DNA of 64,000 nucleotides from an uncultured candidate division Zixibacteria bacterium (GCA_963668625.2 CAXXKA010000006.1:32001-96000), one strand, 5' to 3'; positions 3,479 through 6,510 are shown, counted from the stretch's first letter. Made by a program: numbers and translations. Notes: a model not told the origin generated them from the letters alone.

Positions 3479-4561
3479 ATGAAATCCAATCATGTCCTGG
3501 CAATCGGGGTTGCCATTGCCCTGACAGTCTCATCGCTTTCTTTCAGCTTACCGAAATTCACCGCCTCCTCGGAGCAGAAATGTAACCTTTGCCATGTAAG
3601 CCCCTCGGGCGGCGGTATGAGAAACGATTTCGGGGCGCAGTTTTTCGCTATGACAGAGCTGCCGGTTCATAAAACCGAGTTCGAGCAGATCGAGAAGTTC
3701 CAAACCCGAATATCCGATATTATCTCACTTGGCGCGGATATGCGCACATTATTCAACTATGATGAGGCAACCGATCAAGCCTCGTTCTTTCAGATGGAAG
3801 GGAACCTTCATGTATCGGCTCAACTTGATGACAAGTTCTCGCTGACAATGAGCAAAGGTATCTATGATGGTTTCGAGATTTACGGCATGGGGTACGTTTT
3901 ACCGATGCAGGGTAATTTCCGGGTAGGCAAGTTTCAACCATCCTATGGCTGGCGTTTTGCCGATCATACCTCATTCGTACGGGAGAAAATGCTGTGGTCG
4001 CCCGGCGCTACCGATACCGGTTTCGAACTGGGATTATTCCCGCACAAATTTTCGATTAACGTAGGTTTGTATAACGGAACCAGTGGTACTTTCGATAACG
4101 AGAACAGCAAAGCGCTGTCATCACGAGTTTCATTCCGTCATAAGATAGCCGGTATCGGTTTCGGAATCGGTGGATCTTATTGGATAAATAATCATGATAG
4201 CGGCGATGTTACGATGTTCGGTCCTTTCGGGTATATCAATCTGCTTCAAGGCAAGCTTATCTACATGGGAGAAATCGATTGGTTGAAGGATGAGAACGTT
4301 ATCGGCAAGCCTACCCGGGAGGCTACCACCAACAAATTAAGTTTCAAACTCAGGCAGGGGATATGGTTGAATGCCGGTTACGATTTTTACGATCCGGATA
4401 TTGACCTGGTTACCGGGCGAGTTAATCGTTATGGTATCGGAATCGAGTATTTCCCCTATGGTTTCTTGGAAATACAGCCGAATCTCTGGTATTATGAGGA
4501 TGATTTCGCCAGTGATGATAAATATATATTATTCAACACGCAGATGCATTTCTTCTTTTAA
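3479..4561 (+). CDS. Outer-membrane beta-barrel (porin-like) protein with N-terminal c-type heme motif
   Basis: Signal peptide, CNLCH (CxxCH), porin-like RVGKF motif, alternating beta strands and C-terminal Phe (QMHFFF). Confidence 0.75.
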   Translation: MKSNHVLAIGVAIALTVSSLSFSLPKFTASSEQKCNLCHVSPSGGGMRNDFGAQFFAMTELPVHKTEFEQIEKFQTRISDIISLGADMRTLFNYDEATDQASFFQMEGNLHVSAQLDDKFSLTMSKGIYDGFEIYGMGYVLPMQGNFRVGKFQPSYGWRFADHTSFVREKMLWSPGATDTGFELGLFPHKFSINVGLYNGTSGTFDNENSKALSSRVSFRHKIAGIGFGIGGSYWINNHDSGDVTMFGPFGYINLLQGKLIYMGEIDWLKDENVIGKPTREATTNKLSFKLRQGIWLNAGYDFYDPDIDLVTGRVNRYGIGIEYFPYGFLEIQPNLWYYEDDFASDDKYILFNTQMHFFF

Positions 4562-4584
4562 AGGAGATGGTACGATAAAAGCAT

Positions 4585-4800
4585 CTTGCTAATCTATTCT
4601 GTTGGTGTTAGAGCTTCGGTAATGAATTTCTAACTGGAGCGGATAGGTTATAGGCTGAACTGAATGCTTGAGGCCAGACCTCGTAAAGGAGATTAATCAG
4701 ACCTGTAACCGAATTGCCACCATAAGGCAAAGACCTTGAATAGGAGTTTGGTAGGCGCCGACAGAGAGTCTGCTCCAGTGATAACCATAGAATGGAGCAA
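4585..4800 (+). ncRNA. Putative IS110 bridge RNA (boundaries approximate)
   Basis: Non-coding left end downstream of a -10 box TACGAT (4571-4576). Contains TAAAGGAG (4684-4691, equal to target left flank plus core) and ATAGGAG (4740-4746, equal to donor right end plus core). Confidence 0.6.
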
Positions 4801-4804
4801 GAAG

Positions 4805-5818
4805 ATGAGGTACTTAGGAGTAGACCTTCACACAAACAGTTTGACCGTGTGTTGCCTGACAGCCGGTGGTCGGGAGAGGATCAAGGAGTATCGGCTAAAG
4901 GATCTAAAGGAATTTAAACGAGGATTAAAAAAGACGGATTGTGTAGCGGTTGAGGCCACTGGCAACACTCGTTATTTCGTTGATGAGATATCGCATTTGG
5001 TCAAGCGAGTTGTTGTCGTCGATCCGAACAAATTTGAGATAATCAAATCATCAGTCAGTAAGACGGATGAAAACGATGCCAGGAACTTAGCCTATTTTAT
5101 GAGCAAAGACATGTTGCCGAAAGCCCGATTAAAGACGAAAGATAAAGCGCAGATCAGTTCACTTGTTGGGACACGGGACAAGCTGGTCAAGTTACGTACA
5201 GCTTTGAAGAATAAAATACACAACATACTCAATCATCATGGTATCAAGAGTAAAAAGGAGGCCTACTCCAGCAACAAGAGTTTGGAGCGGGTTCTAAAGA
5301 TGAATTTTGATGAGGTTGTTTCTGTTGAGCTTGAGGTATTGGTTGATCAGATTCGCAGTTTGAATGAGGGGATAAAAAAGCTGGACAAACAGATAGAGGA
5401 TCAGGGTCGCAAGTTGAACGGGCATAAGAACCTGACCAGCATCAAAGGAATCGGCAGCAAATCAGCTACAGTGTTGCTTTCGGTAATTGGTGATGTTGCT
5501 GATTTTTCGGACAAAGATAAATTGGCCTCATATTTTGGCGTAGTGCCGCGAGTTTCCAATTCAAACGAGATTCAGCATCATGGTCGGATTACCAAGCGTG
5601 GTTCTAAGATTGGTCGGACTACACTGGTGCAGTGTACGCTTGTTGCCATACGATATAACCATTACTTGAGTAAATATTACAATCGTATAAAAAACCGTCG
5701 TGGCAGCGGTAAGGCTATCATTGCCACAGCCAGAAAATTACTGGGAATAATCTATGACACCTTGAAAAATAATTGGGTGTTTGAAGATTTCCCTAACTTT
5801 GTGTTAGCAAACAGATAA
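4805..5818 (+). CDS. IS110-family transposase/recombinase
   Basis: YLGVDLH, VAVEATG, KTDENDA (DEDD RuvC-like), SIKGIG, LASYFGVVPRVSNS, GRITKRG, KAIIATARKLL. Confidence 0.95.
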   Translation: MRYLGVDLHTNSLTVCCLTAGGRERIKEYRLKDLKEFKRGLKKTDCVAVEATGNTRYFVDEISHLVKRVVVVDPNKFEIIKSSVSKTDENDARNLAYFMSKDMLPKARLKTKDKAQISSLVGTRDKLVKLRTALKNKIHNILNHHGIKSKKEAYSSNKSLERVLKMNFDEVVSVELEVLVDQIRSLNEGIKKLDKQIEDQGRKLNGHKNLTSIKGIGSKSATVLLSVIGDVADFSDKDKLASYFGVVPRVSNSNEIQHHGRITKRGSKIGRTTLVQCTLVAIRYNHYLSKYYNRIKNRRGSGKAIIATARKLLGIIYDTLKNNWVFEDFPNFVLANR

Positions 5819-5856
5819 CTGAAATTTGGAGTAGACTTTTATCATAGGAGTAAATA

Positions 5857-6510
5857 ATGAATACGAAATATCATTTCAATATCGGTGTAGTCGCGCTAGG
5901 CGCAATCATACTTATGATGGCCTGCTCCGATAAAGGCAGCGACCCGGAGAACAGGGCGCCCGAAATCACCTCGGCTTCATTAGTGGAAGCTTATATCGAC
6001 TCATCATTTTCGTATACCGCTACTGCCGGCGACCCGGACGGCACCACGCCAGTATTGCATTTCGAGAATATTCCGAGTTGGCTCGATACCTCCGCTAACG
6101 TGATCTCCGGGACAGTCGCCGGTAACGCTTCCGATACCTCGTTCACGGTGATAGCCTCGGATGACTTTCTGGCGGATACGCTGGGAGTCATAGTCGATAT
6201 CACCACACCGGCGGTGGTTATTTCCTATACCTCATCAGTGCAGCCGATATTTAATGCTCGTTGTGCTAACTCTGGTTGCCACTTGAATGGAGATAACAGC
6301 GGAGGACTGAGGCTGGACAGCTATACGCTTCTGATGCAGGGTGGTGGTTCCGGCAGCGTAATCACACCGGGAAATTCCAATAACAGTTTACTTGTCAGCC
6401 GTATCGAGGGGACGGTCGGCCAGAGAATGCCGCTCGGCCAGTCGGCGCTGTCTTCTCAGCAGATCGAAACTATTCGCACCTGGATAGAGCAGGGCGCTGA
6501 AAATAATTAG
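5857..6510 (+). CDS. Lipoprotein with Ig-like domain and planctomycete-type cytochrome c domain
   Basis: Lipobox MMAC; Ig/cadherin-like NRAPEITS...DPDG; VQPIFNARCANSGCH, GGLRLDSY, PGNSNNSLL, RMP, IRTWIEQGA (PSCyt1-like). Confidence 0.8.
   Translation: MNTKYHFNIGVVALGAIILMMACSDKGSDPENRAPEITSASLVEAYIDSSFSYTATAGDPDGTTPVLHFENIPSWLDTSANVISGTVAGNASDTSFTVIASDDFLADTLGVIVDITTPAVVISYTSSVQPIFNARCANSGCHLNGDNSGGLRLDSYTLLMQGGGSGSVITPGNSNNSLLVSRIEGTVGQRMPLGQSALSSQQIETIRTWIEQGAENN

What the first reader, a model, noticed from the sequence alone, without database searches (positions are those of the whole stretch)
4559..5859. IS110 element apparently programmed to insert into Shine-Dalgarno sequences
Seen: the element is bounded by GGAG on both sides. 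Removing it restores ...TTT TAA A GGAG TAAATA ATG, which is the stop codon of the porin gene, an SD and the start of the cytochrome lipoprotein. Insertion therefore breaks no ORF and leaves an SD (ATAGGAG) for the downstream gene. The non-coding left end contains TAAAGGAG (4684-4691), identical to target flank plus core, then ATAGGAG (4740-4746), identical to donor end plus core. ACCAT (4719-4723 and 4784-4788) is complementary to the donor sequence ATGGT. Known: IS110 bridge RNAs carry target- and donor-binding loops in that order. Inference: the guide reads the consensus RBS, giving many intergenic safe sites. I found no clean match to the right target flank.
Basis: partly seen in the sequence, partly recalled or inferred. 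Interest (0 to 1): 0.82.

Follow-up and report, generated by a model that had tools for sequence, protein, structure and literature searches.

The report
Jumping gene aimed at ribosome-binding sites
This is an active RNA-guided insertion sequence whose guide RNA spells the ribosome-binding (Shine-Dalgarno) sequence, so that it and its relatives in many bacterial phyla land just in front of gene start codons.

Summary
The element is 1284 bp (window 4567-5850). It has 11 near-identical copies in this genome. Every copy sits at wAAGGAG | element | N5-7 ATG, with the transposase reading the same way as the gene.

About 70 homologues (52-64% aa identity), from MAGs labelled with more than ten phyla, have the same ends and flanks.

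The left end encodes a covariation-supported bridge RNA. AAAGGAG (4685-4691) lies unpaired in the first loop and covaries with the left flank. AUAGGAG (4740-4746) lies in the second loop and matches the right end.

- The second ACCAT is not conserved.
- AU (4692-4693) is a handshake guide.
- The guide order is the reverse of IS621. It is the order reported for IS1111-type seekRNAs, and the element has 11-bp subterminal inverted repeats.

Only 34% of free wAAGGAG sites in the genome precede genes. The 11/11 therefore also needs selection or extra determinants.

Precedent exists: IS900 and IS901 insert between the Shine-Dalgarno sequence and the start codon.

The parts
4560..4566 (+). Left target half plus core: AAAGGAG, the Shine-Dalgarno sequence of the downstream gene. 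It overlaps the stop codon TAA (4559-4561) of the upstream ORF. The crossover lies somewhere in AGGAG (4562-4566 / 5846-5850).
   Evidence: 11 of 11 copies have wAAGGAG here
4567..5850 (+). IS110-family element, 1284 bp. It can equally be written 4563-5846, because GGAG is shared with the target.
   Evidence: 11 copies; identical ends, different flanks; 0 or 1 difference between copies
4571..4581 (+). Left subterminal inverted repeat TACGATAAAAG. TACGAT (4571-4576) is also the -10-like hexamer of the inferred circle-junction promoter.
   Evidence: the inverted-repeat relation holds in the homologues' ends; the promoter is inferred only
4636..4776 (+). Conserved core of the bridge RNA, closed by helix H0 (4636-4643 with 4769-4776).
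   Evidence: nhmmer hits in 75 of 80 loci; alignment A1; 92.5% of cells paired against 33-50% in slid controls; 23 of 36 pairs with compensatory change; z = -5.15
4646..4710 (+). Target-binding module: helix H1 (4646-4657 with 4698-4710) and hairpin HP1 (4669-4683). The variable 5' loop strand is 4658-4668; the conserved 3' loop strand is 4684-4697.
   Evidence: helices 2-4
4661..4668 (+). Candidate weak guide for the right target flank. UGAAUGCU is complementary, with two G.T pairs, to AG|TATTTA.
   Evidence: searches (TATTTA is the best A/T consensus of the 11 right flanks; across homologues z = 2.8 only): suggestive, not shown
4685..4691 (+). Target guide AAAGGAG. It is identical to target positions -7..-1, so it would pair with the strand CTCCTTT.
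   Evidence: 189 of 201 identities at -7..-5; 0 of 5000 shuffles reach this; natural variants ACACGGAG, TAGAGGAG, TTAAGGAG, TAATGGAG and ATTAGGAG each with matching flanks; unpaired
4692..4693 (+). Handshake-like extension AU, identical to the first two bases of the element (right donor +1, +2).
   Evidence: 69 of 70; AU with AT in 60, AC with AC in 9; CU with CT in the Tardibacter plasmid copy
4716..4719 (+). Right-donor guide GCCA, pairing with TGGT (element positions +2..+5).
   Evidence: Over 32 distinct pairs: +2, 28 Watson-Crick; +3, 32; +4, 28 Watson-Crick plus 4 G.U over four base states; +5, 8 Watson-Crick plus 21 G.T
4723..4738 (+). Hairpin HP2 of the donor-binding module.
   Evidence: helix 6, 98% of cells paired, 3 of 5 pairs with compensatory change
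4740..4746 (+). Left-donor guide AUAGGAG, identical to the last 7 bases of the element.
   Evidence: 68 of 69; AUAGGAG with ATAGGAG in 54, AUGGGAG with ATGGGAG in 14
4805..5818 (+). Transposase/recombinase gene, 337 aa, stop included.
5832..5837 (+). TAGACT, the -35-like hexamer. It would lie 17 nt from TACGAT once the ends are joined in a circle.
   Evidence: the same geometry with TTGACA/TTGACT is seen in homologues' right ends. Inferred, not tested
5836..5846 (+). Right subterminal inverted repeat CTTTTATCATA (10 of 11 complementary to 4571-4581).
5844..5850 (+). Element end ATAGGAG. It leaves GGAG at the original spacing in front of the host gene.
5851..5859 (+). Right target half TAAATA and the ATG of the PSCyt1-domain lipoprotein gene (5857-6510).

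Best explanation
This is an active 1284-bp IS110-family insertion sequence that recombines by an RNA-guided bridge (seek) RNA mechanism. Its RNA is transcribed from the left end, with its conserved core at 4636-4776.

The RNA has two internal-loop modules. In the first, the 3' loop strand AAAGGAG (4685-4691) pairs with the CTCCTTT strand of a Shine-Dalgarno (SD) sequence. The next two bases, AU, pre-match the element's own first two bases (a handshake). In the second module, GCCA (4716-4719) and AUAGGAG (4740-4746) hold the joined ends of the excised circle (...CATAGGAG|ATGGTA...).

Strand exchange happens in the shared AGGAG, most likely at AG, which is the family's usual CT core read on the other strand. 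The element therefore lands directly after the GGAG of an SD, always with its transposase co-directional with the host gene. Its own last bases (ATAGGAG) hand back a GGAG at the original distance from the start codon.

Read on the minus strand, the RNA is laid out exactly like IS621's: short left guide on the 5' side, long right guide plus a 2-nt handshake on the 3' side. So the RNA-transposase cassette is inverted relative to the polarity of the recombination site, as reported for IS1111-type elements.

Shown here: copies, flanks, RNA helices, and guide-DNA covariation. Inferred: the RNA's existence and ends, the circle and its junction promoter, the exact core, read-through expression of the host gene, and the adaptive value.
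For: - Eleven copies differ by 0 or 1 base, all at wAAGGAG|...|N5-7 ATG.
- The homologues come from the search for related loci (160 relatives found, best 80 kept). Of the 80, 75 match the left end by nhmmer. Of those 75, 69 have a left boundary xxAAGGAG|A[TC]G and 72 a right boundary CAT[AG]GGAG|.
- Of 68 loci with enough flank, 54 have a start codon 3-12 nt downstream that opens an ORF.
- RNA structure: 92.5% of 2226 cells are paired against 33-50% when partners are slid, and 23 of 36 pairs carry compensatory changes.
- The target guide matches target positions -7..-5 in 189 of 201 cells, and 0 of 5000 shuffles reach this. The match includes five retargeted variants.
- The handshake matches in 69 of 70, and the left-donor guide in 68 of 69.
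- At the right-donor guide, position +4 is pairable in 32 of 32 distinct pairs over four base states.
- The Tardibacter plasmid copy shows the same rules with new letters: CU handshake with a CT element start, and GAAGGAG guide with a GAAGGAG flank.
- The host's 16S rRNA ends ...CACCUCCUUUCU, so AAAGGAG is its exact complement.
- The protein has PF01548 and PF02371 and matches NF033542.
- IS621 layout and handshake rules come from PMC11208160 and PMC11208158 (passages). The reversed guide order in IS1111-type seekRNAs comes from PMC11187229 (passages).
Against: - No RNA data exist: no listed sequencing run is on record as RNA.
- No circle junction or empty site was seen. The runs laid are contigs only, and relatives are too distant to supply an empty site.
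- Rfam has no matching family.
- The boundary patterns used themselves required G[GA]AG, so the invariance of -4..-1 among homologues is partly built in. Positions -7..-5 and the downstream ATG were not imposed.
- Homologues are related, so covariation counts overstate the number of independent events.
- A guide for the right target flank is weak at best.
- Helix H2 is only 80% paired. It overlaps the right-donor guide, so it must open or is partly an alignment effect.
- Only 34% of free wAAGGAG sites are SD-like, so the guide alone does not explain 11 of 11.
Confidence: 0.85

Rival explanations
1. The guide reads only a common 7-mer. The perfect association with gene starts is produced afterwards by selection: insertions into AAAGGAG inside genes are lost, and those behind SDs are tolerated. 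The element is then not specially adapted to translation signals.
For: - Of 851 free wAAGGAG sites, 286 (34%) are SD-like.
- The fraction is still only 36-43% after also requiring T at +1 and/or an AT-rich right flank.
- No strong right-flank guide was found.
Against: - The same 7-mer guide is kept in homologues at 52-64% aa identity across more than ten phylum labels. That is expected if the SD itself is the address.
- The element's end restores GGAG at the same spacing in all copies.
- Right flanks of occupied sites differ from other SD-like sites: T at +1 in 9 of 11 against 21%, and 5.5 against 4.0 A/T in +1..+6, p = 1.6e-5.
- The two readings are not exclusive.
Confidence: 0.4
2. The transposase protein itself recognises GGAG and its surroundings. 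The matching strings in the left end are leftovers of earlier self-insertions or chance.
For: - GGAG is invariant, so it gives no covariation information.
- The protein of IS621 is known to contact the core (PMC11208158, passage).
Against: - Left-flank positions -7..-5 change together with RNA positions 4685-4687 in several lineages: ACACGGAG, TAGAGGAG, TTAAGGAG, TAATGGAG, ATTAGGAG.
- Donor positions change together with RNA positions 4693, 4717-4719 and 4742.
- The strings sit in the loops of a helix-supported RNA.
Confidence: 0.03
3. The flanking GGAG is an ordinary target-site duplication made by staggered cleavage, and the element is a conventional cut-and-paste IS with a sequence preference.
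For: Four identical bases stand on both sides.
Against: - The identity extends to AGGAG, and the next base differs in a fixed way: A on the left, T on the right, in all 11 copies. This fits recombination between two similar sites, not duplication.
- The protein is a DEDD/Tnp IS110-family enzyme. That family is described as making no target duplications (PMC8141618, passage).
Confidence: 0.02

Closest known systems
IS621 and the IS110-group bridge RNA system (Durrant et al. 2024, PMC11208160; Hiraizumi et al. 2024, PMC11208158; passages read)
   Same: - DEDD plus Tnp recombinase, with a non-coding RNA encoded upstream in a long left end.
- Two internal-loop modules, target first and donor second.
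- One strand of each loop matches one DNA strand and the other strand matches the opposite DNA strand.
- A 2-nt handshake follows the long 3' guide.
- The likely core is CT when read on the minus strand.
- The -35 and -10 hexamers are split between the two ends.
   Different: - On the transposase strand the guide order is reversed: the complement of the top strand comes first and the bottom-strand match second.
- The subterminal inverted repeats are 11 bp, against 2-3 bp.
- The target guide is 7 nt plus handshake, with little or no guide for the other flank. IS621 reads 9 + 4-7 nt.
- The protein matches IS621 only over residues 186-327 (50 bits).
- The target is an SD, not a REP-type repeat. 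The REP target is from the reference titles.
IS1111-type elements and their seekRNA, e.g. ISEc11 (Siddiquee et al. 2024, PMC11187229; passages read)
   Same: - The top-strand complement lies 5' of the bottom-strand match.
- Subterminal inverted repeats are about 11-13 bp.
- The transposase aligns over its full length with the ISEc11 transposase (26% identity, 86 bits, E = 2e-23).
   Different: - The non-coding region is upstream of the transposase gene, not downstream. The paper mentions a few such exceptions, e.g. ISMtsp17.
- The extensions outside the repeats are 4 + 4 bp as drawn here, against 7 + 3.
- The target is different.
IS900 and IS901 of the Mycobacterium avium complex (IS110 family)
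   Same: - They insert between the SD sequence and the start codon (PMC2942039, passage, citing Doran 1997 and Inglis 2003).
- The IS900 target motif CATGNNNNNNTCTCCTT (PMC8141618) is the reverse complement of AAGGAGA-N6-CATG. That is the same address and the same cut position relative to the SD.
   Different: - The IS900 motif is written on the transposase strand, so its transposase is antisense to the host gene and its 'hed' ORF is co-directional. Here the transposase is co-directional.
- IS900 is 1451 bp, against 1284 bp here.
- I could not fetch IS900 to compare its left end, so whether its RNA is homologous to this one is open.
   Same: A 1.28-kb IS110-family element whose leader RNA steers it into ribosome-binding sites, with GGAGTAGA as part of RNA helices.
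   Different: It is on different DNA. I saw only the few lines shown.

Membership tests
IS110 family (RNA-guided DEDD transposases, ISfinder sense) | DEDD_Tnp_IS110 (PF01548) N-terminal domain plus Transposase_20 (PF02371) C-terminal domain | tested here: met
   E = 1.4e-13 and 5.4e-22; NF033542, 243 bits, cut-off 140
IS110 family (RNA-guided DEDD transposases, ISfinder sense) | No true target duplication; a short core is shared by target and donor | tested here: met
   AGGAG is shared, and the base at -6 is A on the left and T on the right in 11 of 11 copies
IS110 family (RNA-guided DEDD transposases, ISfinder sense) | Non-coding end encoding a structured RNA whose loops covary with target and donor | tested here: met
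IS110 family (RNA-guided DEDD transposases, ISfinder sense) | Circular intermediate with abutted ends that builds a promoter | not testable with these tools
   Only the hexamers TAGACT-17 nt-TACGAT across the joined ends are visible. The contigs laid show no junction.
IS110-type group (IS621-like) | Long non-coding region upstream of the transposase gene | tested here: met
   left end 238 nt, right end 32 nt
IS110-type group (IS621-like) | Subterminal inverted repeats absent or 2-3 bp | tested here: not met
   11-bp repeat, 10 of 11 complementary; conserved in homologues
IS110-type group (IS621-like) | [quoted passage not shown] | tested here: not met
   the order is reversed on the transposase strand
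IS1111-type group | Subterminal inverted repeats of about 11-13 bp | tested here: met
IS1111-type group | Top-strand complement 5' of the bottom-strand match in the RNA | tested here: met
   Donor loop: 4716-4719 comes before 4740-4746. Target loop: the bottom-strand match lies on the 3' side.
IS1111-type group | Long non-coding region downstream of the transposase gene | tested here: not met
   only 32 nt lie downstream
IS1111-type group | Transposase related over its full length to IS1111-type transposases | tested here: inconclusive
   26% identity over 327 aa to the ISEc11 transposase, against a C-terminal-only match to IS621. No tree was built.
IS900/IS901-like SD-targeting elements | Insertion between the SD and the start codon | tested here: met
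IS900/IS901-like SD-targeting elements | Transposase antisense to the target gene (motif CATG-N6-TCTCCTT on the transposase strand) | tested here: not met
   the transposase is co-directional with the gene in 11 of 11 copies. The motif is from PMC8141618.

The most novel reading that the evidence does not exclude
A whole subfamily of bridge-RNA elements uses the complement of the 16S rRNA tail, the Shine-Dalgarno sequence, as a universal address. One 7-nt guide then works unchanged in more than ten phyla. Every insertion lands in a transcribed leader, co-directional with the gene, so host transcription drives the guide RNA and the transposase. The element's last bases return a GGAG to the host gene at the original spacing.

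Mechanistically it is an IS621-like machine with the RNA-transposase cassette turned round relative to the recombination site. It needs almost no pairing on the second target flank. That makes it the least specific natural bridge system described so far.
Probability: 0.45. Interest if true: 0.7.

Novelty: new variant of a known kind. Interest (0 to 1): 0.58.

Why it matters
- It gives a base-pairing explanation for an old observation: some IS110-family elements insert between the Shine-Dalgarno sequence and the start codon.
- It shows that this habit is not a mycobacterial oddity. It is a property of a widespread subfamily.
- It documents a natural bridge RNA with an upstream gene position but IS1111-like guide order and long subterminal repeats. 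That helps to order the diversity of these RNAs.
- It shows a natural system that relies on about 7 + 2 paired bases on one flank. This is relevant to how much pairing bridge recombinases need.
- For annotation, such elements split operons exactly at gene starts without breaking any ORF, and their ends can be predicted.
- As a tool, an enzyme that lands promoterless cargo directly behind native ribosome-binding sites in many bacteria could be useful. This is untested.

Tried and rejected
- Rfam scan of 4300-6100 at E up to 10: two chance hits far below the gathering scores and no bridge-RNA family.
- The single-sequence MFE fold is strongly structured (z = -5.15), but it pairs parts differently from the covariation-supported structure. 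I used the alignment instead.
- Empty site in relatives: the downstream gene's DNA gave only weak, partial matches in 4 of 30 relatives, so no empty site could be read.
- Public runs: no RNA holder is listed. Four runs were laid (contigs only) and gave no joint across the element and no circle junction. They did show the element at about 49 depth against 2.7-3.5 for the flanks in X1. Near-identical pieces with other flanks appear in two wetland metagenome runs.
The register adopted here gives 0.88/1.0/0.88.
- Right-flank guide across homologues: shuffling across loci gave z of about 3.5-4 at three neighbouring registers, which is partly composition. With a per-locus composition correction, the predicted register is the best of 16 but only z = 2.8.
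- Second handshake, 4747-4748 against right flank +1, +2: my hand tally from the table gives about 40% agreement. It fits this genome (T at +1 in 9 of 11) and one other multi-copy family, but not two others. Inconclusive.
- blastn of the RNA core against plasmids: no match.
- First IS900 search: PMC4607514 held the terms only in its reference list.
- Promoter and terminator scan of 4300-6100: counts are no higher than in shuffles, and no + strand terminator lies between the transposase stop and the host ATG.
- Searches for prior print of a bridge/seek RNA aimed at SD sequences: 'IS110' + 'Shine-Dalgarno' gave 12 papers. 'bridge RNA' + 'ribosome binding site' + 'IS110' gave 5. 'IS110 family' + 'RBS' + 'target site' gave 2. 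None makes the link.
- Supplements are closed. Supplementary Data 2 of PMC11208160 (target motifs per guide bin) and the supplementary figures of PMC11187229 and PMC8141618 may already list such targets.
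Full report
**1. The observation**

The stop TAA of the upstream ORF is at 4559-4561 and GGAG at 4563-4566. The element starts ATGGTACG at 4567. TAAAGGAG is at 4684-4691, ACCAT at 4719-4723, ATAGGAG at 4740-4746 and ACCAT at 4784-4788. The element ends ...TCATAGGAG at 5850, followed by TAAATA and the ATG at 5857.

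The ORF at 4805-5818 (337 aa) carries DEDD_Tnp_IS110 and Transposase_20. It matches NCBIfam NF033542, 'IS110 family RNA-guided transposase', at 243 bits. The upstream ORF has no Pfam hit, so 'porin' is unverified. The downstream ORF has a PSCyt1 cytochrome domain.

**2. Copies in the same genome**

The 1284-bp stretch 4567-5850 occurs 11 times in the 4.3-Mb assembly. Three copies are identical to the window copy. Eight carry one change, G4854A, which turns Cys17 into Tyr. That means two young sub-lineages.

All 11 have wAAGGAG directly before the element and ATG 5-7 nt after its last GGAG. The transposase always reads the same way as that ATG. Nine of the ATGs open ORFs of 116-758 aa and two open ORFs of 34 and 39 aa.

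The base at -6 is A on the left junction and T on the right junction in all copies. The crossover therefore lies in the shared AGGAG, and the GGAG is not a simple duplication.

In contigs of public runs the element has about 49 depth against 2.7-3.5 for its flanks. Near-identical pieces with other flanks occur in two wetland metagenome runs. No RNA run is listed.

**3. Relatives elsewhere**

A scan of one genome per species found 160 relatives, and the best 80 were kept (52-64% aa identity). The record titles name Acidobacteriota, Alpha- and Gammaproteobacteria, Planctomycetota, Omnitrophota, Spirochaetota, Nitrospira, Verrucomicrobia/Kiritimatiellaeota/Victivallales, Cyclobacteriaceae, Thermodesulfobacteriota/Geobacteraceae, Actinomycetes, KSB1, Ratteibacteria, Parcubacteria and one Bathyarchaeota MAG.

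- The left end of the window element finds 75 of the 80 by nhmmer, mostly over its positions 50-215.
- With simple boundary patterns, 69 of the 75 show ...AAGGAG|A[TC]G... on the left and 72 show ...CAT[AG]GGAG| on the right. Four of the six without a left boundary are cut by a contig end.
- Of 68 loci with at least 80 nt of right flank, 54 have a start codon 3-12 nt downstream that opens an ORF.
- Among the 14 without, three sit in CACGGAG repeats (see section 5). Most of the rest have an ATG followed by a short ORF.

One caveat applies. The patterns demanded G[GA]AG, so the invariance of -4..-1 is partly imposed. The A-rich -7..-5 and the ATG were not imposed.

A copy on a plasmid of a cultured Tardibacter strain (52.7% identity) has the same anatomy.

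**4. The RNA**

The 63 distinct left ends align well (A1). A structure of five helices gives the following (numbering in window coordinates).

| Helix | Window coordinates |
|---|---|
| H0 | 4636-4643 with 4769-4776 |
| H1 | 4646-4657 with 4698-4710 |
| HP1 | 4669-4673 with 4679-4683 |
| H2 | 4716-4721 with 4750-4755 |
| HP2 | 4723-4727 with 4734-4738 |

- 92.5% of 2226 cells are paired, against 33-50% when the partners are slid.
- 23 of 36 pairs have changes on both sides.
- 0 of 500 shuffles reach any of the five measures.
- H2 is the weak helix, at 80% paired.
- G.U pairs in H0 and HP1 show that the + strand is the RNA strand.
- The single-sequence fold is also far more stable than shuffles (z = -5.15).

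So there are two hairpin modules, each with an internal loop, inside one closing helix. This is the general plan of bridge RNAs (PMC11208160, PMC11208158; passages).

**5. Which loop letters read which DNA**

A scan of every RNA column against every flank and end position, followed by targeted counts, gives the table below.

| RNA segment | DNA partner | Relation | Counts |
|---|---|---|---|
| AAAGGAG, 4685-4691 | target -7..-1 | identical | 57/67, 67/69 and 69/69 at -7, -6, -5; 189 of 201 overall, 0 of 5000 shuffles as high |
| U at 4684 | target -8 | none | 17/65 |
| AU, 4692-4693 | element bases +1, +2 | identical | 69/70; AU with AT in 60, AC with AC in 9 |
| AUAGGAG, 4740-4746 | last 7 bases of element | identical | 68/69, including 14 with AUGGGAG/ATGGGAG |
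| GCCA, 4716-4719 | element bases +2..+5 | complementary | see below |

The target guide has natural variants, each with a matching flank:
- ACACGGAG with four CCACGGAG flanks.
- TAGAGGAG with TAGAGGAG and GAGAGGAG.
- TTAAGGAG with six TAAGGAG flanks.
- TGAAGGAG with three of four GAAGGAG.
- TAATGGAG with AAATGGAG.
- ATTAGGAG with CTTAGGAG.

The handshake also holds in the Tardibacter copy, where CU goes with an element start of CT.

For GCCA, over 32 distinct pairs: +2 has 28 Watson-Crick pairs; +3 has 32; +4 has 28 Watson-Crick plus 4 G.U across all four bases; +5 has 8 Watson-Crick plus 21 G.T. In the Robiginitomaculum copies this strand reads CCAUCU, the unbroken complement of AG|ATGG.

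That register fits the window by accident of the repeated CCA but not the family. The second ACCAT lies beyond H0, where the alignment is not conserved.

**6. Layout compared with IS621**

[quoted passage not shown] The 3' side is the complement of core plus right half-site, followed by two handshake bases. Those bases pair with the two bases before the core of the other DNA.

Here, on the transposase strand, it is the other way round. If the element is read on its minus strand, everything falls into the IS621 scheme:
- The 3' side AAAGGAG is the complement of CT+CCTTT.
- AU is the complement of the AT that precedes CT in the donor.
- The 5' side GCCA matches ACCA of the left donor.

The core would then be CT, that is AG at 4565-4566 and 5849-5850. 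This is an inference from the position of the handshake, not a measurement.

The RNA-transposase cassette is thus inverted relative to the polarity of the site. Siddiquee et al. report just this reversed order for IS1111-type seekRNAs, along with 11-13-bp subterminal inverted repeats. The element has such a repeat: TACGATAAAAG at 4571-4581 against CTTTTATCATA at 5836-5846.

Its protein aligns over its full length with the ISEc11 transposase (26% identity, E = 2e-23). It aligns only in the C-terminal domain with IS621 and ISCro4. But its non-coding region is upstream, as in the IS110 type. It therefore fits neither group cleanly.

**7. The other target flank**

No conserved guide was found. The 5' strand of the first loop (4658-4668) is the most variable part of the RNA.

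In the register given by analogy with the donor loop, UGAAUGCU (4661-4668) would pair with AG|TATTTA.

- TATTTA is the best A/T consensus of the 11 right flanks: 41 of 66 matches, and the true order ranks among the top 6 of 90 orderings.
- Occupied sites match this pattern better than the 286 other SD-like sites, 3.7 against 2.2 of 6 (p = 5e-4).
- Plain A/T richness separates them even better, 5.5 against 4.0 (p = 1.6e-5).
- T at +1 is found in 9 of 11 against 21% of background sites.
- Across homologues the predicted register is the best of 16, but only at z = 2.8.

I take this as a weak, possibly real contribution.

**8. Is the address really the Shine-Dalgarno sequence?**

The host 16S rRNA ends ...GGAUCACCUCCUUUCU, so AAAGGAG is the exact complement of its tail.

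In the genome, wAAGGAG occurs 862 times. Of the 851 free sites only 286 (34%) are followed by a start codon and an ORF. Adding T at +1 and/or A/T richness raises this to 36-43%.

Eleven of eleven is therefore unlikely from the motif alone (0.43^11 is about 1e-4). Loss of intragenic insertions by selection is the simplest addition. A preference for open or transcribed leaders cannot be excluded.

That the same guide is kept across phyla argues that the SD is the address the subfamily lives on.

**9. Consequences, inferred**

- No ORF is broken.
- The host gene keeps GGAG at the same spacing, as cATAGGAG in place of aAAAGGAG.
- No + strand terminator-like site lies between the transposase stop and the host ATG. 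Read-through from upstream or from the element is therefore plausible.
- Every insertion lies in a transcribed leader in the sense direction. That would supply transcripts of the RNA and the transposase from the integrated copy.
- Joined ends would place TAGACT (5832-5837) 17 nt from TACGAT (4571-4576). Homologues have TTGACA or TTGACT in the same place.

None of this was tested.

**10. What is known**

[quoted passage not shown] The IS900 target motif CATGNNNNNNTCTCCTT (PMC8141618) is the reverse complement of AAGGAGA-N6-CATG. IS900 therefore has the same address but the opposite orientation of the transposase to the host gene. I could not fetch IS900 to compare its left end.

Three full-text searches found no paper that links a bridge or seek RNA guide to the SD sequence. 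Supplements that might list such targets are closed. A 2026 preprint notes many bridge RNA shapes that deviate from IS621, but in the passages I saw it says nothing on this target.

**11. Verdict**

This is a real, active element. The donor guide is corrected, the RNA layout clarified, and the 'safe site' claim tempered by the background count.

It is a new variant of a known kind. It has an IS110-family bridge system with IS1111-like polarity and repeats and an upstream RNA gene. It uses a very short one-sided target guide. Its address was seen in mycobacterial IS900 and IS901 long ago but was not explained there.

Noticed in passing
L068, L070, L073, L080 (Acidobacteriaceae MAGs), left boundary near 1270 and right boundary near 2550: A sub-lineage whose target guide reads ACACGGAG sits in runs of CACGGAG-like 8-9-mers (for example ...CACCACGGAG|element|GCACGGAGGTCACGGAG...), not in front of genes. 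It looks like a natural retargeting to a short tandem repeat of unknown nature.
   Followed up: partly
window 4814-4825, 5826-5837 and 4636-4643: GGAGTAGAC-like strings recur: in codons 4-7 of the transposase (TTAGGAGTAGAC), in the right end (TTGGAGTAGACT) and, as GGAGCGGA, in the 5' strand of helix H0. The H0 3' strand could in principle pair with any of them. This may allow alternative pairing that couples RNA folding to transposase translation. Not examined.
   Followed up: no
window 4567-4578: After insertion the host's original SD is followed at once by ATG GTA CGA TAA from the element. This is a 3-codon ORF with zero spacing to GGAG. It is probably not translated, but it is present in all copies.
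   Followed up: no
window 4684-4697 and 4740-4748 (as DNA): The DNA that encodes the target guide is itself a perfect 7-nt target (AAAGGAG followed by AT). None of the 11 copies carries a nested insertion there. What protects it, if anything does, is unknown.
   Followed up: no
window 4854: The window copy and two others have G (Cys17). Eight copies, and the collapsed contigs of runs X1, X3, X4 and X5, have A (Tyr17).
   Followed up: yes
L041 and L052 (Robiginitomaculum chromosome): Two copies about 0.8 Mb apart share the same left and right flanks for at least 14 and 12 nt. This suggests a larger duplicated segment rather than two independent insertions.
   Followed up: no
L026, right end near 2559: The right-end string ACAAACATCATAGGAG is present twice in tandem, before the host ATG.
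   Followed up: no
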